Shown: piece by piece, positions 1 to 13,051 of the stretch
How the letters are laid out: the number at the start of each line of letters is the position of its first letter
Numbering within the stretch: the first letter of the stretch is position 1
Assembly (NCBI GenBank): GCA_041737595.1
Contig: JBGSRK010000015.1
Location: 1 to 13,051, forward strand
Source: Patescibacteria group bacterium
GTDB lineage: Bacteria; Patescibacteriota; CPR2; UBA1875
Direction: 5' to 3'
Length of the DNA: 13,051 nt
The notes under the pieces: model-generated
What the model was told of the DNA's origin: nothing
The model's input: the letters and a program-made list of their open reading frames with translations, nothing else
Database searches by the model: none
Position numbers and translations under genes: made by a program

Positions 1-533
1 CTCCAGTTTTCAGATGATGGTGCTATATTTGGAGTAATATAATTATTCAGTAATCTAACTGGGAGAGTCGTAAATTCAATAACACTCGTTTCATTAATAT
101 TAGACATATTACCATTTCTGGACACTATTTTAGTTTTATAAAGTTTATTAGCCTCGAGCCCTGTAAATGAATATTCAAAGGTACCATTACCGGCGGGGTC
201 AACTTGTAACCAATCAGTTGTTTTCCCAATACCACTAATTAAAATATTATTCGCGTCGTAAAGATAATATTTAATACCAGAGTTTTCAAAATTTAGGTTG
301 CTATAATTTATATTTTCTGAATAAACAGTAATTGTATTAGAATCAAGTGTTGAATTTTTTATCTTAACATTACCAGGTGATTCTATATTGGTATACATTT
401 CATATTCAGTAGAGGGAGAAGGGTTTCCACTGCTATATGCATGAATATGTACTGAGTTATCAATATTCTTATTAACAACCCCTTCTTGAATCCATTCATA
501 GTAATTAGCGCCAGTTTTAGCACCCCCCCCCAT
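1..533 (-). CDS. Frameshifted C-terminal continuation of the giant surface protein (fibronectin type III-like domains); partial, runs off the left edge
   Basis: Manual translation is stop-free from 533 to the edge: MGGGAKTGANYYEWIQEGVVNKNIDNSVHIHAYSSGNPSPSTEYEMYTNIESPGNVKIK...GTFEYSFTGLEANKLYKTKIVSRNGNMSNINETSVIEFTTLPVRLLNNYITPNIAPSSENW. YSFTGLEANKLYK...EFTTLP is an FN3-like pattern. Removing one G from the tract at 523-531 joins it to the upstream ORF. Confidence 0.8.
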   Translation of the reverse strand, partial: MGGGAKTGANYYEWIQEGVVNKNIDNSVHIHAYSSGNPSPSTEYEMYTNIESPGNVKIKNSTLDSNTITVYSENINYSNLNFENSGIKYYLYDANNILISGIGKTTDWLQVDPAGNGTFEYSFTGLEANKLYKTKIVSRNGNMSNINETSVIEFTTLPVRLLNNYITPNIAPSSENW

Positions 534-3500
534 TTATTGATGCTAGTGGGGTATCACTTTCATCCCCTTCCACATGATCACCAGCAAAAAATTTAAATCC
601 ACCAATTGAGTCCGTTGGTTCTGATTGTTGCCATTTCCATTTAATAGATGTTTCTGTAATATTTTCATGGCTTAAATTATATGGCTTACCTGGTGGCATA
701 TATAATGAACCGTTAATTGGGGCAACAGGGGTTCTCCCAGTACCAGCTACGTAACTAATTGTCCCTGTCCATTGAGATTTATCACCATAAACAATACTGA
801 CACGTCCTCCACCCCCCCCACTCCCTTGATTTGTAGTAACAGATAAACCATTACCCCCAATAGCACTAATAACACCATTCCCCAACAAAGATCCAGTGGA
901 AACATTAACCGTACCACCAGAACCACCTCCCCCAGAACGGGTAGTTGAATAGATAGCACCGTTTGCACCATTTGAAATAATTTGACCGTTATTGGTTACT
1001 GAATTAACTGTATTTAATAAAATGGCGCCACCCCCCTTACCGCCAGTCCCCGAACTATAACTACCAGCACCACCACTACCAAGATCTACAGGCTTTTTAT
1101 CAACTCCATATGTATCTCCTCCAGTATAAAGGCTATAATAACCTCCATGCCCACCATAAGAGCCTCCTCCAGCGAAATAACTATTACTCTGGGCATAACC
1201 TGGTCCAAACCCACTCCCATTTGTACCAGTACCACCTGCGTAACCCTGTCCACTTGCATCAATCTTAGAACCAGCATCCACAGTAACATTCTTAGCATTT
1301 ATTGTAAGACCCCTACCATTGTAACTAGGGGATGTTGATATTGTGTAATAACCGAGTGGAGTAAGAGTAGAACCGTTTTTAACTAAAAGTAGACCGTTCG
1401 GGACATTTAAAGTTGAATTACCACCAACTGTCATAGTTGAAGTTAGAGCATCCCCTACTGTTGCATCTCCAGATACATTAATAGTTGAATTTGATGGGAA
1501 AGTAAGAGTCCCACTACTTAAAAGTAAATCATTATAGAAATTAAAAGTTGAAGGGGTTGTAGTTGGGTTTGTGTTACTGCCTAAAGTAGCAGTCCCCCCG
1601 TTTACATTGAATGTACCTGCATTAACAGTGGAACCATTACCGACAGTAACTGTTTTAGATGATGGGATATTAAAACTATTTGAACTTGAAGTTAATTGTG
1701 CACCAGTACCTAAGGTAATAGTACCATCAGTGTATGTTATGGGGGCAGAAATAGTAACATTAGCAACATTAGCACTTAGTGTTCCCCCATTAACTGTTAA
1801 TGATGCCCCTGAAATAGAAGTGCCTGTACCGACAGTAAATGTTTTTGTACTTGGGACAGTGAATGTATTAAGAGGGTTTTCAAGAACAGAATAAGACCCC
1901 GTGGTAAGATTCCCTGTCGCAGTGCGATTTATTTTTGCTGAAATATTACTATAATTACCAAGAGTTAATGTCCCATTATTAATATTTATTTCTGTAGTTA
2001 CTGGTATTGGGTTGGTAAGTGAGGTAAAGCTTGGAAAGGTTAATACAGCCCCACTCTGTTCTAAAGATATAGCCGTATTATTCAATGTAGCAGGTTCTGC
2101 ACTAAATAATATACTGTGGTTAGCATTCAAAGTAATATCACTTACCACACTAAATGTACCGCTCCCAATACTTACTACATTTGTATTCCCATTCGTCATA
2201 AATAATGAGCCAGAACTTAATGTAGTATTGGTCCCTGTATAAAATTTAGTGTTGTTACTACTAAGTTTTAATTCATTTGTGACTGAAATATCATTACTAT
2301 TACCTATAGTAAAGTTGTAGCCTCCATTTAATATAAAGGTATTATATTTCTGTGTTAACCCCGACTGAGTATTTGTTAAAGCGACTGTCATTGTTACAGC
2401 CAGGTCAGGGTATACCGAAGTATTAATCAATGTTTCACCGGCCGAAAAATCAATATCGGCTGGTAAATTATCGTTATTACCCCCATAGCTAGACCAGGAA
2501 CTTTGTACGCCAGTCGAATTAAGATAGCTTGCCTGCCAATGGTAACTTATGCCAGCTGTTAATTTACCACTGGGTATATTAACAGTAGCCAAATATACCC
2601 CGTTTTTAGTATCTATTATTGAGCCTTGATAAGTATTTATATTATCAATAGTACATATATCAGTCCCGGTGCACGTAAAGGCAGTGTCTACGGATCGTAT
2701 CTCAATTTGTGGGGTGAAAACATTAGTTATACCTGGGCTATTTGACTGATACCAAAAAGATAGATTTATCCCAGATTCATTTGTAGTTGCCCCTGTGCCA
2801 AGCACAGTATTACTAATTGTTTTTTGGTTACCAAACCCTAATATACTATCATTTGCAGGATAAGAAAGTGTCCCATCTTCGCCACCATTATAACTAGTGC
2901 CTTTTGTAGTAATATTTGATTCTGTAAGGGCCGAACCTGACCAAGTAGAACTATTAAATTCGATAAATACTCTACCGCCTCCGCCTCCTCCTGAGAATCT
3001 ATATGTTTCATTCCCCCCTTTACTTGCTAAAATACCATTTCCAGAAAAAATATTTGTTTTTATCCAAATACTACCACCACTACCGCCCGAGTATGTGTTC
3101 GTGCCTCCATTGGCAAGCAATGAACCGTTATTTATAAATGAATTATTAGAGATAACTTTTATTGCACCACCACCTGTGCCACCTCTGTTAGAGCCCCCGC
3201 TACCTAAATCTGTGGGCTGGTATACAGAACCGTAAGTTTCACCGTAAGGGACGCCACTACACCATAGACTCCTACCACCAGCACCACCATAACTTCCCCC
3301 GTTCCCACCCTCTAAAAGACAAGAACCAGCCCCTGGGCCATCACCTAAAATTGAACTCCCCCCTCCGATATAGCCCTGTAAGGAAGCATCAATCTTAGAA
3401 CCAGTATCAATTTGTATATTATTACCTGCGTTAAGGGTCACCCCTTTACCATTTGTCGCTGCCGTACCAGTTCCTGTGTAATATCCTTTTGGTATGATAC

Positions 3501-5481
3501 TCGAATTACCCGTTACTAAGATATCTCCTGTCCCACCAGCCACATTTACATCTATGACAGAACCGTCAATTGTATCTGTAGGCTGTATATTTAGTACTGC
3601 CCCATTTTTAACAGTTATAGATTTATATCCATTAACCCCTTGTCTATCACTATAAATAGTATATTGCTCACCATCAACAACAAGATCTCCACCAGCAATA
3701 TCACCGGTTACTCCTATTGTAATAGAAATATAAGGTATCAAGCTTTTATTAGTAATGTAGTCAGAAGAATAAAAAGTTGATGTACCAGTGGTTGCTGTTA
3801 GTACTATTCCGTTATTAGTTAATAAACCAGCTTGCCAAGCTTGAGTAATATTTGTAATATCAAATTTTTGCCAATTTACAGATGCAGAGGTAGTAAGAGT
3901 AGATGTATAACCAGTATTATAATCTCCAGTTCCAAAAGTGGTTGAAGCCCAAGTATTGGTGCCATCTTTCTTTGACCAGGTTGCTCCTGTTTCCGTCCAA
4001 CCGCTAGTTGTAAGAGGATAAATAGTAGTCGCAACGGCCGTTGTACTAGATTGGTAAAGATTTAAAGAGGCTGAAGTTATCCCCTCACCCGGGTTTAATA
4101 GAGTTGAATAATCAAAGTGTAGTAATGGACGGGTTGTTGAGGAGTTGCTAAGTGTAGTGGCAGTTCCATAATTTGTTGTTGTGGCCCCAGAATTGATATA
4201 AGTATCTTTTTTGGTGCTTGTTTCAAGTTCAACTTTAATAGTCCCTTTGTTATCTACAATATTTTGACCAGTTAAAAAAACAACTTGGAGATTTGTACCC
4301 GTAATAGTATTCCAGGTTGAACTATCTGTTGTTACTGTAATATTAGAACCATTCCAAACAATACCACCATCTGTTGAATATTGAACTGTGGTGGTAGTGG
4401 TGTATTTAATTGTATAAATATTTGGAGTTAAGGTGCTCCCCGATAGAGGTCTGACCGAGAGAAGTGGTATACCTACTGTGTTATTAGTAGTTAAACGATA
4501 ATTATTTGGCTGAATATTATAAATTGTTGGATCGAGTATCATAGGATACGTCATACTACTAAGATCTGGTATTTTAATTTTTAATGAATATTTATTTTTT
4601 TCAGTTTTAACTAAAATGTAGTCGAGATATTTTATAACTTCATTTTTATCTTGGATAAAGGGTTGTGGCATTTGAGCCAATAGGGCACCTTCATCTAAAA
4701 CAAGTATGCTTCCGTTAATATCTTCTCTAAGGTTTAATTTAGTTTCAATTATTTCATTTATTTCATAAGGATGCCCTGATTCTTTAAATATAAAGTTTTG
4801 CTTAATTCCGGTAGGTTCTGCGATTCGTTCAAGATTAGTATTAGTATAAATATTTTTATATGTTGCTTTATTGTTTTCTATAGTTGGATTTGATTTATTA
4901 AGTTGATCCGAGAGAGCAAACTTCATTTTATAATCTTTATCTAACTGATTTGAAATTTGAGGGGTAAACTCAATTGGCTTTGAAATATCTTTTTGAAACC
5001 TAAGGTTATACGGGGTTTTTAAAACCTCAAAATTATTCTCATCAAGATTAGTAATATTTGTGTCTATAAGTTGATAATTACCATTTTTATCTTGATAATT
5101 TATTTGTTCTCCATAAACACGATATTCTTTTTTCCCCTCAGAGTTTTGATAAACTCTAATGTTTGGTTTTCTTTCACTAGGAAGTTCTGCATATGCCTGT
5201 AATGGTTTTGATGGGCTGAAAATACTTGGGGCTAAAAATTGAGTAAGCGAAAAAAAAGTAATTGATATTATAAAGGCCATTAAGGTCGCATTATGGATTT
5301 TAGATGAATAAGGTTTATCAGTCCATTTTTTATATCTTCCACCTTTAGAGTAAGAGATATCATGAAGTTTTCTTATTTTAAGATGATAAAAATTTAACCC
5401 TTCGAAATACAAAAGACGAGCTTTAGATATAGCTATCCCAAAACGATAGAATATGTTTGTTTGTTTACCCTTCTTTTTCAA
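517..5481 (-). CDS. Giant secreted/surface protein (1654 aa up to the frameshift): N-terminal TM/signal segment, wall-associated-protein-like region, DNRLRE/CBM96-like domain, two Gly-rich modules, beta-helix-like T/S/N/G-rich region, start of an FN3 domain
   Basis: TTG start with AAGGGGG SD at about 5489-5495. Hydrophobic segment LMAFIISITFFSLTQFLAP; YPMILDPT motif; DTYINSGATTTNYG...RPLLHFD...WTETGATW...FDITNITQAW...NNGIVL...FYSSD; two IDASxQGYxGG...GGSYGG...PxDLGSGG...GGGGGRV modules; PGKPYNLSHENITETSIKWKW FN3 start. Domains assigned by eye. Confidence 0.85.
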   Translation of the reverse strand: MKKKGKQTNIFYRFGIAISKARLLYFEGLNFYHLKIRKLHDISYSKGGRYKKWTDKPYSSKIHNATLMAFIISITFFSLTQFLAPSIFSPSKPLQAYAELPSERKPNIRVYQNSEGKKEYRVYGEQINYQDKNGNYQLIDTNITNLDENNFEVLKTPYNLRFQKDISKPIEFTPQISNQLDKDYKMKFALSDQLNKSNPTIENNKATYKNIYTNTNLERIAEPTGIKQNFIFKESGHPYEINEIIETKLNLREDINGSILVLDEGALLAQMPQPFIQDKNEVIKYLDYILVKTEKNKYSLKIKIPDLSSMTYPMILDPTIYNIQPNNYRLTTNNTVGIPLLSVRPLSGSTLTPNIYTIKYTTTTTVQYSTDGGIVWNGSNITVTTDSSTWNTITGTNLQVVFLTGQNIVDNKGTIKVELETSTKKDTYINSGATTTNYGTATTLSNSSTTRPLLHFDYSTLLNPGEGITSASLNLYQSSTTAVATTIYPLTTSGWTETGATWSKKDGTNTWASTTFGTGDYNTGYTSTLTTSASVNWQKFDITNITQAWQAGLLTNNGIVLTATTGTSTFYSSDYITNKSLIPYISITIGVTGDIAGGDLVVDGEQYTIYSDRQGVNGYKSITVKNGAVLNIQPTDTIDGSVIDVNVAGGTGDILVTGNSSIIPKGYYTGTGTAATNGKGVTLNAGNNIQIDTGSKIDASLQGYIGGGSSILGDGPGAGSCLLEGGNGGSYGGAGGRSLWCSGVPYGETYGSVYQPTDLGSGGSNRGGTGGGAIKVISNNSFINNGSLLANGGTNTYSGGSGGSIWIKTNIFSGNGILASKGGNETYRFSGGGGGGRVFIEFNSSTWSGSALTESNITTKGTSYNGGEDGTLSYPANDSILGFGNQKTISNTVLGTGATTNESGINLSFWYQSNSPGITNVFTPQIEIRSVDTAFTCTGTDICTIDNINTYQGSIIDTKNGVYLATVNIPSGKLTAGISYHWQASYLNSTGVQSSWSSYGGNNDNLPADIDFSAGETLINTSVYPDLAVTMTVALTNTQSGLTQKYNTFILNGGYNFTIGNSNDISVTNELKLSSNNTKFYTGTNTTLSSGSLFMTNGNTNVVSIGSGTFSVVSDITLNANHSILFSAEPATLNNTAISLEQSGAVLTFPSFTSLTNPIPVTTEININNGTLTLGNYSNISAKINRTATGNLTTGSYSVLENPLNTFTVPSTKTFTVGTGTSISGASLTVNGGTLSANVANVTISAPITYTDGTITLGTGAQLTSSSNSFNIPSSKTVTVGNGSTVNAGTFNVNGGTATLGSNTNPTTTPSTFNFYNDLLLSSGTLTFPSNSTINVSGDATVGDALTSTMTVGGNSTLNVPNGLLLVKNGSTLTPLGYYTISTSPSYNGRGLTINAKNVTVDAGSKIDASGQGYAGGTGTNGSGFGPGYAQSNSYFAGGGSYGGHGGYYSLYTGGDTYGVDKKPVDLGSGGAGSYSSGTGGKGGGAILLNTVNSVTNNGQIISNGANGAIYSTTRSGGGGSGGTVNVSTGSLLGNGVISAIGGNGLSVTTNQGSGGGGGRVSIVYGDKSQWTGTISYVAGTGRTPVAPINGSLYMPPGKPYNLSHENITETSIKWKWQQSEPTDSIGGFKFFAGDHVEGDESDTPLASINGGGC
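523..531 (-). repeat. G9 homopolymer at the frameshift site
   Basis: Nine C on the + strand. Minus strand reads AAT GGG GGG GGG TGC TAA; with G8 it reads AAT GGG GGG GGT GCT AAA ACT... and stays open. Confidence 0.9.
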
Positions 5482-5657: not shown

Positions 5658-8510
5658 TTAGATAACAATATTTAAGATCTTATTTGGGATATAAATAATT
5701 TTTTTTGGTTTTTCGGTGCCAATATATTTTTTTACATTTTCTTCGACTAATGCTTTTTCTTCAACATTTTTTTGAGTACTATTTTTATTCATCATTATAT
5801 TAGCTCTGACTTTACCGTTTATTTGCACAACAATAGTCACAATGTCGTCCTCAATCATCTTCGGGTCAAATTTAGGCCATGGCTCAAGATGTACACTTTT
5901 AGTGTTCCCTAATTTCATCCAAAGCTCTTCTGCAAGATGTGGTGCAAACGGAGCAAGTATAATCGCGAATTTAGAAAGTATTATTTTATTCTGTTTCTTC
6001 TCTTTTGTAAGTGTATTTAAAAGAATCATAAGTGTACTAACAGCAGTATTAAATCTGAAATTTAATATATCTTCTTCAACCTTTTTTATGGTACGATTGA
6101 TTATTTTTTCATGTTCTATTTTTGGTTCACCTTCTTCAGTTGGTAGTTCAAATAGATTCCAAGTTCTTTTTAAAAATTTATGAACTCCTTCTACTCCCTT
6201 TTCGTTCCAAGCCGCAACGTCTTCAAATGGGCCTATAAACATTTCATATGTTCTAAAAGTATCACCGCCAAAATTTTCAATAATTTCATCTGGATTAACT
6301 ACATTCCCTCTTGATTTAGACATTTTTTGGTTATCTTTCCCAAGTATCATTCCGTGTGAATGACGTCTTTTATACGGTTCTTCAGTTGGGACAACCCCAG
6401 CATCAAATAATGCTTTATACCAAAATCTTGAATATAAAAGATGAAGAGTTGTATGCTCCATACCTCCGTTATAAAGATCGACTGGAAGCCAATATTCCAT
6501 TTTATCTCTAGCGGCAAGTTCCTTGTCATTTTTTGCATCAACATAACGGATATAATACCAACTTGAACCTGCCCAATTTGGCATTGTGTCTGTTTCTCTT
6601 TTTGCTGAACCACCACATTTTGGACATTTTACATTAACCCAAGATTCAACAGCTGCAAGCGGAGATTCCCCTGTCCCTGTTGGTTCATATTTTTCAACCA
6701 TAGGAAGTTCTACTGGTAAATCTTTTACTGGGACTGGGACTTCGCCACATTTTTCACAATGAATTATTGGAATCGGCTCTCCCCAATAATGTTGACGAGA
6801 AAAAATCCAATCGCGAAGCTTATAATTAATTGCCTTTTTAGCTAATTTTTTCTTTGAAAGTTCTGTAATTATTTTTTCTTTCGCTTCTTCTGGTTTTAGA
6901 TCATTATATTCTTCTGAATTCATTAAAACCCCTTCATCAGTCCAAGGTTGGCCATCCATAAGATCTGTTTCAAAAATATATTTATGATTTATAAGTGAAA
7001 TTTCATTTAACATTTCGTCTTTAGTTTTCCAACTTATGTGATGTAGATCCTTTTCTTCTTCTTCTCGCTCTTTTAATTCACCGTCAGCAAGTTGGATAAA
7101 GATGTTTTTTTGATAAGCATGTCTATTTACCCCTTTGTGTGGGGCATGGAATTGATCAATATGTGAAAGTTTAACATATCTTGCTTCTTTTATATTTTGA
7201 TAACCAGTTTCTTCTCTTATTTCTCTTTTTGCTGCTTCAAGTGGGTCTTCTCCTTCTTCTATCCCACCAGTAAATAGACACTTCCAGTTAAATTTAGGGG
7301 AATAATCAAGAAGGTATTTTTCTTCTTTCCAGTGTTTAACGATTACAATTACCCCATTTCTTATTGTATTTTCAGCGTCTTTTTTAGGAGGATTAATTGG
7401 ATCCACAAAAATTGGTGAAATAACCTGAATTATTGGCAAATCATATTTTTTAGCAAAATCCCAGTCACGCTCATCATGGGCAGGAACCGCCATAATTGCA
7501 CCATGACCATAGTTCATAAGAACATAATCAGATATCCAAATTGGAATTTTTTCATTATTAATTGGATTTATGGCAAAACTCCCAGTGAATACCCCTGTTT
7601 TATCTTTTTCAAGCTCTTGTCTTTCAAGATCACTTTTAAATTTAGTGTCTTTTACATATTTTAAAACATTCTTTTCTTGTTCTTTTGTTGTTAATTTTTG
7701 AACCAAAGGATGTTCTGGGGCAATAACCATAAAGGTAGCTCCAAAAAGAGTGTCTGGACGCGTTGTAAAGACCCACATGTCGTTTTCTTTTCCTTCAGTA
7801 TCAACTGCCTTAAAAAGAACTTCGGCCCCTTCTGAGCGCCCTATCCAGTTGATTTGTTGAGTTGATATTTTTGATAAATAATCAACATTTTTAAGATCTT
7901 CGATCAGTCTATCTGCATATTTAGTAATTTTAAGCATCCATTGGCTTAATTCTTTTCTTTCTGACTGAGCACCACAACGTTCACATTTACCATCAATTAC
8001 TTCTTCGTTTGCTAACCCAGTTTTACAAGAAGGGCACCAATTTATTGGCATTTTTTGTTTATAGGCAAGCCCCATTTCATATAGCTTTAAAAATATCCAC
8101 TGGGTCCATTTATAATACTGGGGATCAGTTGTATTTATTTCTCTATCCCAATCAAATGAACACCCCCAAGATATCAATTGCTTTTTAGAGTTTTCAATAT
8201 TATTTTTAATTGTAATAGATGGGTGGATACCAGTTTTTATTGCATAATTTTCGGCTGGGAGTCCAAAAGCATCCCAACCAATTGGGAAAAGTACATTGTA
8301 TCCTTGCATTCGCTTTAACCTTGAAAGAGCGTCAAGTGCACTATAACTCCGACCATGACCAACATGAAGGCGTTCACCAGAAGGATATGGGAATTCAATT
8401 AAGCAGTAAAATTTTTCCTTTTTATCAAAATCCTTGGCAGCGTAAATATTAGAATCTAACCATTTCTTCTGCCACTTCTTCTCTATTTTTTTGTGATTAT
8501 ATTCAGACAT
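5658..8510 (-). CDS. leuS: Leucyl-tRNA synthetase with an inserted Nudix hydrolase domain
   Basis: FPYPSG-RLHVGH (HIGH motif), GWDAFGLPAEN, CP1 editing motifs TTRPDT and GAIMAVPAHDERD, LRDWIFSRQHYWGEPIP, KMSKS and C-terminal VQINGKVR. Nudix box GGIEEGEDPLEAAKREIREETG at 7203-7268. GAGGG SD at 8514-8518. Confidence 0.98.
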   Translation of the reverse strand: MSEYNHKKIEKKWQKKWLDSNIYAAKDFDKKEKFYCLIEFPYPSGERLHVGHGRSYSALDALSRLKRMQGYNVLFPIGWDAFGLPAENYAIKTGIHPSITIKNNIENSKKQLISWGCSFDWDREINTTDPQYYKWTQWIFLKLYEMGLAYKQKMPINWCPSCKTGLANEEVIDGKCERCGAQSERKELSQWMLKITKYADRLIEDLKNVDYLSKISTQQINWIGRSEGAEVLFKAVDTEGKENDMWVFTTRPDTLFGATFMVIAPEHPLVQKLTTKEQEKNVLKYVKDTKFKSDLERQELEKDKTGVFTGSFAINPINNEKIPIWISDYVLMNYGHGAIMAVPAHDERDWDFAKKYDLPIIQVISPIFVDPINPPKKDAENTIRNGVIVIVKHWKEEKYLLDYSPKFNWKCLFTGGIEEGEDPLEAAKREIREETGYQNIKEARYVKLSHIDQFHAPHKGVNRHAYQKNIFIQLADGELKEREEEEKDLHHISWKTKDEMLNEISLINHKYIFETDLMDGQPWTDEGVLMNSEEYNDLKPEEAKEKIITELSKKKLAKKAINYKLRDWIFSRQHYWGEPIPIIHCEKCGEVPVPVKDLPVELPMVEKYEPTGTGESPLAAVESWVNVKCPKCGGSAKRETDTMPNWAGSSWYYIRYVDAKNDKELAARDKMEYWLPVDLYNGGMEHTTLHLLYSRFWYKALFDAGVVPTEEPYKRRHSHGMILGKDNQKMSKSRGNVVNPDEIIENFGGDTFRTYEMFIGPFEDVAAWNEKGVEGVHKFLKRTWNLFELPTEEGEPKIEHEKIINRTIKKVEEDILNFRFNTAVSTLMILLNTLTKEKKQNKIILSKFAIILAPFAPHLAEELWMKLGNTKSVHLEPWPKFDPKMIEDDIVTIVVQINGKVRANIMMNKNSTQKNVEEKALVEENVKKYIGTEKPKKIIYIPNKILNIVI

Positions 8511-10435: not shown

Positions 10436-11082
10436 ATAAATATTGCTGTTTTACGCCAAATCTTAATGAATTCTTCTTTATTTATATACTTATTCTTTAG
10501 CTCTAACCGATCTTTGCTATTTTTTTTCGGATTATTTGGATCATTTAAATATATTCCAACTATATTATTATTTTCAAATTTATACCCAGTTAATACAACT
10601 AGATGTGGGTTATTCTTTTTACCTAAATTTTTATTTATACTTATAATTATTGGAATTTCCAAATCTATGCTTTTTTTAATTGTATATAACGATTCACTAA
10701 TCACTTGTTCTTTATATAAAATAATTGATTTAGCATTATGGTTCTCATTTACAATATTTTGTATATCGCTTGGTCTTATTAAATATGAATGTCTGAATGA
10801 TTTAAATCCAAATTCTTGGATTGTTTGAACTAGTCTCGAATGAATCCAACCATAGTCTTTTCTTTGACCCAATTGAAGTCTGTAAGCTCTATTCTTTAGA
10901 GATGATTTTATTAATAAATTTAATGGGATTCTTTTTTTGTTATATTTATCAGATAAATAATCAAGAATCATTTTTACTGAAACAATACCACAAGAACGTC
11001 TTTTAAAAACTTTAATATGCTCTTTTGAGCCATCGATCTCCTCAAATTCAGAATAATATGGAATATTAATTATTTTTTTCAT
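10426..11082 (-). CDS. Peptidase C39-like family protein
   Basis: IPYYSE...RSCGIVSVKM (catalytic Cys), PIIISI...PHLVVLTGY (His), YLNDP (Asp). ATG 11082 preferred over TTG 11085; TATAAT lies at 11095-11090. Confidence 0.8.
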   Translation of the reverse strand: MKKIINIPYYSEFEEIDGSKEHIKVFKRRSCGIVSVKMILDYLSDKYNKKRIPLNLLIKSSLKNRAYRLQLGQRKDYGWIHSRLVQTIQEFGFKSFRHSYLIRPSDIQNIVNENHNAKSIILYKEQVISESLYTIKKSIDLEIPIIISINKNLGKKNNPHLVVLTGYKFENNNIVGIYLNDPNNPKKNSKDRLELKNKYINKEEFIKIWRKTAIFIER

Positions 11083-11176
11083 CAAAATTATTATAACTCA
11101 ATCTAGAAATATTAGCTTTAAAATGATAGAATATTCGAGCTGTTTTCTAAATATATTATATTAATTAAATAGTTTT

Positions 11177-11252
11177 GGGCCTGTGGCGCAGTTGGTAGCG
11201 CGCCTCCATGGCATGGAGGAGGTCAGGAGTTCGAATCTCCTCAGGTCCACCA
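11177..11252 (+). tRNA. tRNA-Ala (anticodon GGC)
   Basis: 76-nt cloverleaf. Acceptor GGGCCTG/CAGGTCC with the G3:U70 Ala identity pair; anticodon arm CCTCC-ATGGCAT-GGAGG; T-arm AGGAG-TTCGAAT-CTCCT; encoded CCA. Confidence 0.98.
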
Positions 11253-11269
11253 TAAAAAATTTCGACCCA

Positions 11270-11382
11270 TTTCAGCAGCTTTATCACCACCCGAAAATCG
11301 GGCTTCAGCGGGCAAGTTCAAGAGTAAATCGTACGGTTTGACGAAATCAAGCAAGAGCTGTCCGCCTGTTGAAATGCGGTTC
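11270..11382 (-). repeat. Inverted copy of the recombinase 3' region (left arm)
   Basis: Reverse complement matches 12939-13051 at 112/113 positions; the mismatch is 11371 G versus 12950 T. Confidence 0.97.
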
Positions 11383-11462
11383 CTGGGCGGTAGCACAGAA
11401 AGGATGAAAGTATATTACAATTATTCACTCAATATACCGAGTCCTTTGAGCCGTAAGGTTCC

Positions 11463-11482
11463 CTCGCCTCAAAAGAGGCGAG
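11463..11482. other. 8-bp perfect hairpin upstream of the recombinase
   Basis: CTCGCCTC-AAAA-GAGGCGAG, followed by ATTTT. Confidence 0.6.
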
Positions 11483-11562
11483 ATTTTGGCCAGATTCCAT
11501 TGTCGGTGTAATAAGAATGCATTTGGAAGCGATAAAATATACAAACAAACGAGGAGGGATTT

Positions 11563-13051
11563 ATGCTAAAATTTTTCATCTATTGCAGAAAGTCGTCCGA
11601 GGAGGAAGAACGGCAGATTTTATCGATCGAGGCCCAGCTCCAAGAACTGCGAGACTATGCTAAACAAAATGATCTTTTGGTTACAAAAGAATTCACTGAA
11701 AGCCGAACAGCTAAGGAGCCGGGGCGACCGATTTTCAATCAAATGCTTTCAGAAATGGAAGAAGGTCATGCTACGGGTATTTTGGCTTGGAACCCTGACC
11801 GCCTAGCTCGCAACTCTATTGATGGCGGGAAGGTGATCTATCTTGTTGACGAGGGCAAAATAGAAGCCTTGAAGTTTCCGACTTTCTGGTTTGATACAAC
11901 TCCACAAGGAAAGTTCATGTTGAGTGTGGCCTTCGGACAGGCCAAGTATTACACCGACAATTTGCGCGAAAACATTTTGCGAGGAATCAGGCAGAAGCTA
12001 AGGCGAGGCGAGTTCCCCTCCAAGGCTCCCCTAGGCTACTACAATGAGCCGAGACGAAGAACAATCGAGCCTGACAAGGAAACCTTCACAAAGATGAAAA
12101 AAGCCCTTCAGCTCTACGCTGAGGGCAACCATACCCTATCTGGGATCCGAGACGAAATGTTTTCAGCGGGCTTGGTTTCAAAAACTGGAAAACCGATACA
12201 CCTCTCGACTGTTCATGGTTTTCTCAAGAATCCATTCTACTATGGTATGTTTTTCTATCGTGGCGAACTCCAGCAAGGGAGCCACCAGCCGATGATCACA
12301 AAGAAGCTCTATGACAAAATCCAAGTAGCCATGCACGACAACGGCAAGCCCCGCAAAAAGACTGATCCGAAGGGCTTCCCATTTCTAGGCTTCGCGAGGT
12401 GCGGGGCATGTGGGTATATGATAACTGCGGAACGCCACACAAAACCGAGTGGCCGCGAGTATGTATATTATCGCTGTACCAAGAAGAGCAAAGCCCAGAA
12501 ATGCTCCGAGCCGAGCTTTTTGCGGGATGAAGTGCTGGCCGATCAAGTCACAGAAAGATGTCAAAGAGCTTCTATCCCCGACGAATGGAGAGACAAATTC
12601 CTAGAAAAAGTAGCCCTCTGGGAACAAGAACAAAATGACTCGACAGGCGTTATGAGTGGGAAGCTCAAGGATAAGCTCCGAGAGATAGGCATTAAACTAG
12701 ATAGACTCTCAAATGGCTATCTTGAAGGGGCTTATGAGCTTCCAGAATATCACCTAAAGAAAAACAATCTAACCGAACAAAAGAAGGATCTGGAAGAGAA
12801 GTTATCCGATTTTGAGCGGAAAGGTAATCATCGGCTCGAACTTTTGAAAAACTGGATTCTTGAAGCCAACCAAGCGGGAAATCTGGCCAAAACAAAAAAT
12901 TTCCCACTGATGAGAAATTTTTTGAAAACCGTCGGCTCGAACCGCATTTTAACAGGCGGACAGCTCTTGCTTGATTTCGTCAAACCGTACGATTTACTCT
13001 TGAACTTGCCCGCTGAAGCCCGATTTTCGGGTGGTGATAAAGCTGCTGAAA
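11563..13051 (+). CDS. Large serine recombinase (resolvase, recombinase, Zn-ribbon and coiled-coil regions); 3' partial
   Basis: SD GAGGAGG at 11551-11557. MLKFFIYCRKSSEEEERQILSIEAQ (catalytic Ser), GRPIFNQM, AWNPDRLARN, APLGY, LKNPFYYG, GSHQPMI, Zn ribbon CGACG...YYRCTKK...KC. Stop-free for 496 codons to the window edge. Confidence 0.96.
   Translation, partial: MLKFFIYCRKSSEEEERQILSIEAQLQELRDYAKQNDLLVTKEFTESRTAKEPGRPIFNQMLSEMEEGHATGILAWNPDRLARNSIDGGKVIYLVDEGKIEALKFPTFWFDTTPQGKFMLSVAFGQAKYYTDNLRENILRGIRQKLRRGEFPSKAPLGYYNEPRRRTIEPDKETFTKMKKALQLYAEGNHTLSGIRDEMFSAGLVSKTGKPIHLSTVHGFLKNPFYYGMFFYRGELQQGSHQPMITKKLYDKIQVAMHDNGKPRKKTDPKGFPFLGFARCGACGYMITAERHTKPSGREYVYYRCTKKSKAQKCSEPSFLRDEVLADQVTERCQRASIPDEWRDKFLEKVALWEQEQNDSTGVMSGKLKDKLREIGIKLDRLSNGYLEGAYELPEYHLKKNNLTEQKKDLEEKLSDFERKGNHRLELLKNWILEANQAGNLAKTKNFPLMRNFLKTVGSNRILTGGQLLLDFVKPYDLLLNLPAEARFSGGDKAAE
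12939..13051 (+). repeat. Right arm of the inverted repeat, inside the recombinase CDS; truncated by the window edge
   Basis: Reverse complement of 11270-11382. Confidence 0.97.

What the first reader, a model, noticed from the sequence alone, without database searches (positions are those of the whole stretch)
11241..11396. Recombinase C-terminal tail is encoded antisense into the tRNA and stops in its acceptor stem
Seen: on the minus strand the inverted arm continues in the recombinase frame as ...NRISTGGQLLLDFVKPYDLLLNLPAEARFSGGDKAAEMGRNFLWWT*. TGG TGG ACC TGA overlaps the antisense of the tRNA 3' end (stop at 11243-11241). An in-frame GTG at 11396 would give a separate 51-aa ORF. Inference: the host tRNA supplies the recombinase's last codons and stop, so the protein's C-terminus depends on integration state or orientation.
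Basis: partly seen in the sequence, partly recalled or inferred. Interest (0 to 1): 0.7.

Follow-up and report, generated by a model that had tools for sequence, protein, structure and literature searches.

The report
Mirror copy of recombinase end at tRNA
The stretch is the junction where a small mobile island, moved by a large serine recombinase, is inserted into the end of a tRNA-Ala gene. The apparent recombinase tail there is a detached mirror copy of the gene's real end, because the island carries its attachment site twice, in inverted orientation.

Summary
The minus strand of 11241-11396 reads ...AEMGRNFLWWT*, with the stop inside tRNA-Ala(GGC). It mirrors the recombinase 3' end (113-nt inverted repeat, 1 mismatch).

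It is not the end of the gene here. Stop codons precede it. The real gene (11563-13051, + strand) ends in the other arm, at the contig end.

Across 160 related loci from candidate-phyla-radiation (CPR) bacteria, the recombinase cassette lies between two inverted copies of an attP-like site: X arm, 6-nt core, I arm.
- The core is the last 6 nt of the target tRNA.
- The I arm is the last ~40 codons of the recombinase.
- The X arm encodes a conserved 13-19-codon tail.

In 86 of 137 loci with the repeat, the 3'-side copy is joined to a tRNA. In 78 of 79 distinct cases the ORF then runs into the tRNA antisense.

This window is the rare other isomer, in which the upstream copy was used. Its partner junction (X-CCACCA-host) is on contig C108. 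An X-CCACCA-I junction is present in contigs of both public runs that hold the window.

Novelty: a new variant of a serine-integrase island.

The parts
11177..11252 (+). tRNA-Ala(GGC), intact. It is the target (attB side) of the island. Its T-loop GTTCGA lies 12 nt before the core.
   Evidence: ARAGORN; Rfam RF00005, 65.9 bits.
11247..11252 (+). Core CCACCA: the last two acceptor-stem bases, the discriminator A and CCA. It is shared by attL (here), attR (C108:274-279) and the X-core-I junction seen in run contigs. The crossover is inferred to lie within it.
   Evidence: In 72 of 86 related loci the repeat ends exactly 6 nt inside the tRNA.
11253..11382 (-). I arm (left arm of the inverted repeat): an inverted duplicate of the last ~40 codons of the recombinase gene. 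Together with the core and the tRNA it forms attL. Identity to the right arm can be measured in the window only for 11270-11382, because the contig ends there.
   Evidence: Relatives have repeats of up to 136 nt that reach the core.
11241..11396 (-). The 51-aa mirror ORF of the finding. It is a by-product of the inverted duplicate and is not joined to a recombinase body.
   Evidence: three stops immediately upstream in frame.
11383..11562 (+). Spacer/leader of the recombinase gene. It has conserved blocks: a hairpin at 11383-11398 with compensatory changes in relatives, a second hairpin at about 11463-11482, and GAGGAGG before the ATG.
   Evidence: Alignment A2 of 10 Ala-type loci; RNAalifold pair counts.
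11563..13051 (+). Large serine recombinase gene (Resolvase, Recombinase and Zn_ribbon_recom domains), open at the 3' end because the contig ends. 496 codons are visible.
   Evidence: It aligns to the SPbeta integrase 9dxh over residues 6-458 of a homologue.
12939..13051 (+). Right arm of the inverted repeat: the gene's real 3' coding end, cut by the contig end. 12950-13051 is 102 nt, so the contig stops where the last k-mer holding the single mismatch ends (assembler k of about 101, inferred).

Best explanation
Positions 11241-11396 are the attL junction of a small integrative island moved by a large serine recombinase (LSR).

Attachment site. The island's attachment site has three parts:
- an X arm of about 45-60 nt. 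It carries a tRNA-T-loop-like GTTCGR motif 17 nt from the core, and it encodes the recombinase's native last 13-19 codons;
- a 6-nt core identical to the last 6 nt of the target tRNA (here CCACCA);
- an I arm of about 90-130 nt, which is the last ~40 codons of the recombinase.
This site is present twice, in inverted orientation, on either side of the cassette 'spacer + recombinase gene'.

Integration. The enzyme recombines one copy with the 3' end of a tRNA gene. The I arm then supplies the tRNA's terminal bases, so the tRNA stays intact. The X arm ends up at the far end of the island, next to the displaced core and host DNA.

The two isomers.
- If the copy at the gene's 3' end is used (the common isomer), the ORF loses its X-encoded tail and reads into the tRNA antisense.
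- If the upstream copy is used, or the cassette is later flipped between the arms, the result is this window. The tRNA is joined to the detached mirror arm and the gene points away from the tRNA. It keeps its X-encoded tail only if the X-core-I junction seen in the runs is the continuation behind 13051, which no contig shows.

Shown: the anatomy, both junctions in this genome, the family-wide pattern, and the coding signature of X.
Inferred: a circular free form, crossover inside the core, LSR catalysis, and any functional effect of the tail swap.
For: This genome.
- attL = tRNA | CCACCA | I arm in C80.
- attR = X | CCACCA | host DNA at C108:251-279, with G+C 0.58 before and 0.30 after the junction.
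- There is only one copy of this recombinase in the genome.
- Contigs of both public runs that hold the window carry 24 nt of the same X arm joined to 11247 onward. In X2 this contig runs through the arm and spacer into the gene start, 11247-11604.

Family. Of 160 loci (80 genome contigs, 80 metagenome contigs, a few duplicated):
- the inverted repeat was found in 137;
- X on the left and a tRNA on the right in 72;
- any tRNA on the right in 86 (Gln 35, Gly 19, Ser 19, Ala 10, Val 2, Ile 1);
- the repeat ends exactly 6 nt inside the tRNA in 72 of those 86.

A second, inverted X + core + unrelated DNA, i.e. the far junction, lies 2-3.4 kb upstream in L014, L015, L025, L026 and L049 (5 of 26 loci with at least 1.5 kb upstream) and in L006.

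Both copies are usable:
- L120 and L149 have the cassette between two inverted tRNA genes.
- L027 and L109 have X on both sides.
- L110 is a 1878-nt contig bounded by a 212-nt repeat.

X encodes a tail.
- The frame is open for 13-19 codons and then stops in 78 of 81 distinct X arms.
- Third-codon-position entropy is the highest overall (1.06/0.93/1.31) and in each of the 4 subfamilies.
- 21 of 120 database homologues end in this tail.

Serine-integrase logic. Pfam finds Resolvase + Recombinase + Zn ribbon. The motif GTTCGR lies 12 nt from the core in the tRNA and 17 nt from it in X, in all four subfamilies. This matches the 5-bp shift of the zinc-ribbon-domain motif between attB and attP described in PMC3783163 (passages read). 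Identity between the junctions is limited to the 6-nt core.
Against: - No contig or read shows what follows 13051 in this genome. The X-core-I junction in the runs could come from a free or differently arranged copy rather than from the gene's own 3' end.
- No empty attB was seen (listed loose ends only; 14 were not shown).
- No same-genus relative gives an empty site.
- No circular form was recovered.
- Canonical serine integrases have one attP, and recombination between attP and attL or between two attPs is not expected.
- The two isomers are very unequal: 86 loci with a tRNA at the 3' arm, against this window, L079, L120 and L149 with a tRNA at the upstream arm. Random use of either copy does not explain this.
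- The I arm shows no clear zinc-ribbon-domain motif at the attP spacing.
- Depth figures (host flank about 5, gene 9.5 in X1) come from contigs and are weak.
Confidence: 0.78

Rival explanations
1. In-situ flip-flop. The cassette between the two arms inverts in the living population, by homologous recombination or by the recombinase. Both isomers would then coexist, and in part of the cells the recombinase really does read through 11396-11241 into the tRNA.
For: The arms are 95-100% identical within most loci, while the recombinase proteins of different loci are only 45-96% identical to the window's. This fits ongoing exchange between arms. Both orientations exist among relatives. The X arm beside the detached copy keeps a coding signature.
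Against: No joint or strand-changing contig was reported (table 5: none). However, 31-mer contigs cannot bridge a 113-136-nt repeat. The isomer ratio is extremely skewed (86 against 4), unlike a free switch.
Confidence: 0.3
2. Hin-like phase switch. The repeat-flanked cassette is mainly an invertible promoter element that turns the neighbouring cargo genes on or off. Integration at tRNAs would be secondary.
For: The recombinase lies inside the repeat-bounded segment, as hin does. Cargo next to X is often an HTH regulator plus DNA methyltransferases or restriction-modification genes, transcribed away from the cassette. The spacer holds conserved hairpins.
Against: The enzyme is a roughly 520-aa integrase-type LSR, not a small invertase. 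The arms coincide with island/host junctions at six kinds of tRNA. Cargo is not always restriction-modification: L014 carries a LysE translocator and an LD-carboxypeptidase.
Confidence: 0.12
3. IS-like transposon. The unit 'arm, spacer, recombinase, arm' is a serine-transposase insertion sequence with terminal inverted repeats that inserts at tRNA ends. X would just be a preferred pseudo-tRNA target.
For: Many homologues sit on contigs of 1.6-2.1 kb. L110 is bounded by its repeat. L120 and L149 show the bare cassette between two tRNAs.
Against: X co-varies with the recombinase subfamily. It is read in the recombinase frame with a fixed-length tail. It recurs inverted at the far end of the cargo next to the displaced core. 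There is no target duplication beyond the core. Serine recombinases cannot excise a segment between inverted sites.
Confidence: 0.06
4. Assembly artefact. The inverted repeat at the contig end is a fold-back chimera.
For: The right arm touches the contig end. The bin has 143 contigs.
Against: There is one mismatch between the arms. The same architecture is found in 137 of 160 independent loci. Contigs from two runs cover the arm, spacer and gene.
Confidence: 0.02

Closest known systems
Phage-type large serine integrases (A118/LI, Bxb1, phiC31, SPbeta SprA)
   Same: Same domain set and sequence similarity to SprA and the A118 integrase. The junctions share only a short core. The same motif lies 5 bp further from the centre in the element arm (X) than in the host arm (tRNA), as described for attP versus attB (PMC3783163, passages read).
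   Different: The target is a tRNA 3' end; the Islander paper (PMC4383910, passages read) says serine-family integrases were not known to target tRNA genes. The site lies inside the enzyme's own 3' coding end. It is duplicated as a long inverted repeat around the gene. No directionality factor was identified.
SSV1-type archaeal tyrosine integrases, whose attP lies inside the int gene (recalled, not checked in a paper here)
   Same: Integration at a tRNA changes the integrase ORF, because the attachment site lies within the gene.
   Different: The enzyme class differs. Only the last 13-19 codons are exchanged, so the gene is not split in two. A spare copy of the complete 3' end is kept in the island.
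Yeast 2-micron plasmid (FLP sites inside two long inverted repeats) and the Hin/Gin invertible segments (recalled)
   Same: Two inverted copies of a recombination site divide the element into two segments that can exist as isomers. As with hin, the recombinase gene lies in one of the segments.
   Different: Here the sites serve integration into host tRNA genes. Inversion itself has not been observed. The enzyme is an integrase-type LSR.
tRNA-targeting genomic islands of tyrosine integrases (Islander signature)
   Same: The island lies next to an intact tRNA, the integrase gene is at the tRNA-proximal end, and the tRNA 3' end is restored by island DNA.
   Different: The repeated tRNA fragment is only 6 nt, not tens of nt. 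The enzyme is a serine recombinase. An extra intact attP-like site remains inside the island.

Membership tests
Large serine recombinase (serine integrase) | N-terminal resolvase catalytic domain, followed by a recombinase domain and a zinc-ribbon domain | tested here: met
   PF00239 4e-20 (residues 5-150), PF07508 6.5e-09 (178-258), PF13408 4.3e-10 (273-333); aligns to SPbeta SprA 9dxh over 6-458 and to the A118 integrase 4kis.
Large serine recombinase (serine integrase) | attP and attB share only a short central core, and the distal recognition motif is shifted 5 bp between attP and attB half-sites | tested here: met
   The junctions share 6 nt. GTTCGR lies 17 nt from the core in X and 12 nt from it in the tRNA, in all four subfamilies. 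The rule was read in PMC3783163. Only one arm of each site shows the motif clearly.
Large serine recombinase (serine integrase) | Catalysis of attP x attB recombination, with a 2-nt staggered crossover | not testable with these tools
   The L026 attR core is CCGCAA against CCGCCA elsewhere in that locus. This places the exchange within the first 4 nt of the core, by inference only.
Integrated genomic island at a tRNA gene | Two junctions in one genome: tRNA + island DNA, and island DNA + displaced tRNA end + host DNA | tested here: met
   C80:11177-11382 and C108:251-279, with a G+C step from 0.58 to 0.30. The physical link between the two contigs is not assembled.
Integrated genomic island at a tRNA gene | Empty site in a relative or in the population | tested here: inconclusive
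   There is no same-genus genome among the 40 relatives. One same-order genome has tRNA-Ala(GGC) near a homologue of a C108 gene, but on the other strand. No empty-site contig is among the listed loose ends.
Small DNA invertases (Hin/Gin/Pin) | An enzyme of about 190 aa with a C-terminal HTH, and 26-bp inverted sites flanking a segment | tested here: not met
   The protein has at least 496 aa with recombinase and zinc-ribbon domains. The arms are 85-157 nt.
Insertion sequence with terminal inverted repeats | Repeats at the element ends, next to unrelated host DNA, with a target duplication | tested here: not met
   In 88 of 137 loci the left arm is flanked by the conserved, coding X arm. Cargo and a second X lie beyond it.

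The most novel reading that the evidence does not exclude
The duplicated, inverted attachment site works as a self-limiting switch. Integration through the copy at the gene's 3' end cuts off the recombinase's conserved 13-19-residue tail and replaces it with arbitrary tRNA-antisense residues. This would disable or redirect the enzyme and lock the island in place. The spare complete 3' end, kept upstream in inverted orientation, would let a flip of the cassette restore the native enzyme and re-mobilise the island, or let it capture a second tRNA gene and invert the chromosome. That would be directionality control of a serine integrase by exchange of its own C-terminus, without a separate directionality factor.
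Probability: 0.2. Interest if true: 0.8.

Novelty: new variant of a known kind. Interest (0 to 1): 0.6.

Why it matters
The result defines both partners of the reaction for a very large recombinase family: a roughly 60-nt X-core-I site and the last ~25 nt of a tRNA gene plus its downstream flank.

It matters for four reasons:
- It shows serine integrases that target tRNA genes. This was stated as unknown in 2014 (PMC4383910).
- It explains why these genes sit at contig ends or on roughly 1.8-kb contigs in CPR assemblies.
- It points to a source of chromosome inversions between tRNA genes (L120, L149).
- It offers sets of natural integrase/site pairs (Ala/Val/Ile, Gln, Ser and Gly types) that could be tested as genome-engineering tools.

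The tail exchange is a testable idea about how such an enzyme's direction is controlled.

Tried and rejected
- Other copies in the genome: blastn and tblastn of the recombinase region against the whole genome found no second copy and no contig that continues past 13051.
- Empty site: a search of 40 relatives with the host flank gave only tRNA and gene-level matches and no clean empty site.
- The viral contig collection held only one distant relative, so a phage origin is not supported by that scan.
- Rfam found only tRNAs in the window and six loci.
- The consensus scan found one promoter-like site before the tRNA and no terminator-like site in 11000-11700.
- I tried to place the crossover symmetrically between the TCGA motifs of X and I. 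This put it outside the shared core, so I dropped it (own reading).
- Laying run contigs gave no joints. 31-mer contigs cannot bridge the repeat, so this says nothing about inversion.
- No contig covers 13004-13051 in either run.
- Literature: five full-text searches listed no paper describing duplicated inverted attP sites or tRNA-targeting serine integrases of CPR bacteria. The tycheposon preprint (10.1101/2020.12.28.424599, passages read) mentions a minority of elements with large serine recombinases but nothing on this architecture. Supplements were closed and were not seen.
- The search of earlier findings was not open.

Full report
**What is in the window**

The window is a complete 13,051-nt contig (C80) of a 1.09-Mb, 143-contig genome bin with 38.5% G+C. 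ARAGORN and Rfam place tRNA-Ala(GGC) at 11177-11252 on the + strand.

A large serine recombinase gene starts at 11563 on the + strand and runs off the contig end at 13051. It has 496 visible codons and the Pfam domains Resolvase, Recombinase and Zn_ribbon_recom.

Positions 11270-11382 are the reverse complement of 12939-13051: 113 nt with one mismatch, at 11371/12950. It runs on as MGRNFLWWT and stops at 11243-11241, inside the tRNA's 3' acceptor strand.

In the same frame, three stop codons lie directly upstream of that peptide. The left arm is thus a detached copy of the gene's 3' end and not the end of a gene.

The distance from the mismatch at 12950 to the contig end is 102 nt. The contig stops where the last k-mer that still contains the distinguishing base ends. 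This fits an assembler k of about 101 (inference) and implies that the perfect repeat continues beyond 13051.

**What the relatives show**

The protein belongs to a very large family. There are 5979 hits at E <= 0.001 among the 7999 candidates scored, and the source names that exist are from candidate-phyla-radiation (CPR, Patescibacteria) bacteria. I fetched 80 loci from species genomes and 80 from metagenomes. A few are the same DNA filed twice. One script classified them all.

- An inverted repeat was found in 137 of 160 loci. One arm is the 3' end of the recombinase ORF and the other lies 100-300 nt upstream of its start. Most of the other 23 are cut by contig ends.
- Arms are 85-157 nt long in the first set and mostly 95-100% identical within a locus.
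- In 86 of the 137, the 3' arm abuts a convergent, antisense tRNA gene: Gln 35, Gly 19, Ser 19, Ala 10, Val 2, Ile 1.
- In 72 of those 86, the repeat ends exactly 6 nt inside the tRNA. The 6-nt cores are CCACCA, CAGCCA, CCGCCA and GCTCCA, depending on the recombinase subfamily.
- After removing duplicate DNA, 79 such loci remain. The recombinase ORF stops inside the tRNA antisense in 60, beyond the tRNA's 5' end in 18, and is broken earlier in 1.
- The tail after the core is 0-93 codons long, with a median of 13.

**The other side of the repeat**

The DNA outside the upstream arm is not host DNA. It is a conserved 'X arm', found in 88 of 137 loci by a frame-based test. Several of the 25 loci classed as 'other' are X with the repeat boundary shifted by a few bases, judged by eye.

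X carries GTTCGR 17 nt from the core in all four subfamilies. The tRNA's T-loop GTTCGA lies 12 nt from the core. A 5-bp outward shift of the same motif is what Rutherford et al. describe for the zinc-ribbon-domain motif of attP relative to attB half-sites: positions 16-24 against 11-19 (PMC3783163, passages read).

It has a conserved pattern, C[VL]L..[AIV]RT.F..N. The third codon position is the most variable, both overall (entropy 1.06/0.93/1.31) and in each subfamily (36 loci).

Among 120 database homologues, 21 end in this X-encoded tail, 76 end at or in tRNA-antisense sequence, and 23 are truncated or otherwise different. X therefore encodes the enzyme's native C-terminal tail. X-core-I has the layout of an attP site that lies inside the 3' end of the gene and is duplicated, inverted, upstream of it.

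**The island**

A second, inverted X plus core lies 2-3.4 kb further upstream, followed by unrelated, host-like DNA. It was found in 5 of 26 loci that have at least 1.5 kb of upstream sequence (L014, L015, L025, L026, L049) and in L006.

The common arrangement is therefore:
host, core, reverse-complement X, cargo, X, core, I arm, spacer, recombinase, I arm, core, tRNA.

Cargo includes an XRE-type HTH gene, DNA methyltransferases, type I and type II restriction-modification genes, and in L014 a LysE translocator and an LD-carboxypeptidase.

Such an island holds attL (tRNA-core-I), attR (X-core-host) and one intact, inverted attP-like site (X-core-I). A free circle formed by excision would carry two inverted attP copies that separate the recombinase cassette from the cargo. 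The circle is an inference; none was recovered.

Both copies are usable:
- L120 and L149 have the bare cassette between two inverted tRNA genes.
- L027 and L109 have X on both sides.
- L110 is a 1878-nt contig bounded by a 212-nt repeat.

**This genome**

The window shows the rare arrangement, with the tRNA joined to the upstream arm. L079, L120 and L149 are the only others among the 160 loci with a co-oriented tRNA 100-700 nt upstream of the gene.

The partner junction exists in the same bin. C108:251-273 is the X arm, identical over 24 nt to the one seen in the run contigs. It is followed by CCACCA at 274-279 and then AT-rich DNA. G+C is 0.58 for C108:1-273 and 0.30 for the next 2 kb.

The bin holds only one recombinase of this family. 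More distant ones lie on C108 (39% identity) and C36 (25-27%).

Two public runs from one study hold the window, probably its source. In both, a contig carries the 24 letters of X directly before 11247. In X2 that contig continues through the arm and spacer to 11604. A separate X2 contig joins the tRNA to the arm, covering 10992-11276.

An X-core-I junction is thus present alongside tRNA-core-I. This is what the model predicts for the sequence behind 13051: arm, TGGTGG, reverse-complement X. A free or differently arranged copy could also produce it. The reverse complement of the C108 X arm translates, in the frame after the core, as CVLDDARTHFGRDEA followed by a stop.

**How it most likely works**

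- Shown: the two junctions, the shared 6-nt core, the duplicated site, the family-wide pattern and the coding signature of X.
- Inferred: the recombinase recombines one X-core-I copy with the tRNA 3' end. The crossover lies in the first bases of the core, because the L026 attR core reads CCGCAA against CCGCCA elsewhere in that locus. The I arm restores the tRNA.
- Inferred: using the 3'-side copy swaps the enzyme's conserved tail for tRNA-antisense residues. Using the upstream copy, or flipping the cassette afterwards, leaves the tail in place and puts the gene downstream of the tRNA in the same orientation. No terminator-like site was found between them by the consensus scan.
- Unexplained: why the first isomer outnumbers the second by about 86 to 4. 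One possibility is that loss of the tail stabilises the island.

**Rivals**

- In-situ inversion may coexist with the main model (0.3).
- A Hin-like expression switch for the cargo is possible but secondary (0.12).
- An IS-like unit is unlikely (0.06), because X is coding and recurs at the far cargo end.
- An assembly artefact is excluded for practical purposes (0.02).

**Comparison with known systems, and novelty**

By domains, PDB similarity and site logic this is a serine integrase island. It differs in three ways:
- It targets tRNA 3' ends. [quoted passage not shown]
- Its attP lies inside its own ORF.
- It carries attP twice, as a long inverted repeat.

Five full-text searches listed no description of this architecture. 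Supplements were closed, and subscription journals are not covered. I rate it a new variant of a known kind.

**Verdict**

Interest 0.6.

Noticed in passing
window 5658-8510 (-): The leucyl-tRNA synthetase ORF (950 aa) has a NUDIX domain hit (PF00293, 4.8e-13, residues 388-500) directly after the editing domain. This is an unusual insertion for LeuRS.
   Followed up: no
window 517-5481 (-): A 1654-aa ORF with no Pfam family above threshold; the only hit is a sub-threshold one to TGFb_propeptide.
   Followed up: no
L026, L033, L037, L039, L060, L074, L014, L015 (about 60-150 nt left of the X arm); also C108:1-20: A recurrent GC-stem hairpin with a C-rich loop (such as TTCCTTCCCCCCAACCCCCTTCC) sits just outside the X arm in several subfamilies. 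Many contigs, including C108, start inside it. Rfam has no match.
   Followed up: partly
L120:6601-8600 and L149:6712-8537: The recombinase cassette lies between two inverted tRNA genes (tRNA-Gly(tcc) twice; tRNA-Gln(ctg) and tRNA-Gln(ttg)), with no X arm and no cargo.
   Followed up: partly
window 11383-11398 and about 11463-11482; alignment A2: The spacer upstream of the recombinase gene has two conserved hairpins. The first has 3 pairs with changes on both sides among 10 loci. They may be operators or leader structures.
   Followed up: partly
G000 C36:89611-90561 (-), next to tRNA-Ala(tgc) at 88993-89069 (+) and tRNA-Ile at 88570-88646: A distant serine recombinase (25% identity to the window's) also points toward a tRNA-Ala gene about 540 nt away. 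It may be another tRNA-associated element.
   Followed up: no
window 10800-12980 in run X1: Contig depths are about 4.9-5 for the host flank, 16.5 for the repeat arm and 9.5 for the recombinase body. If taken at face value, the element is about twice as abundant as this host junction. Contig depths are weak evidence.
   Followed up: no
L026:1478-1513: At the far junction the core reads CCGCAA instead of CCGCCA. The original tRNA-Ser gene probably did not encode a full CCA, and the island's arm supplies one.
   Followed up: no
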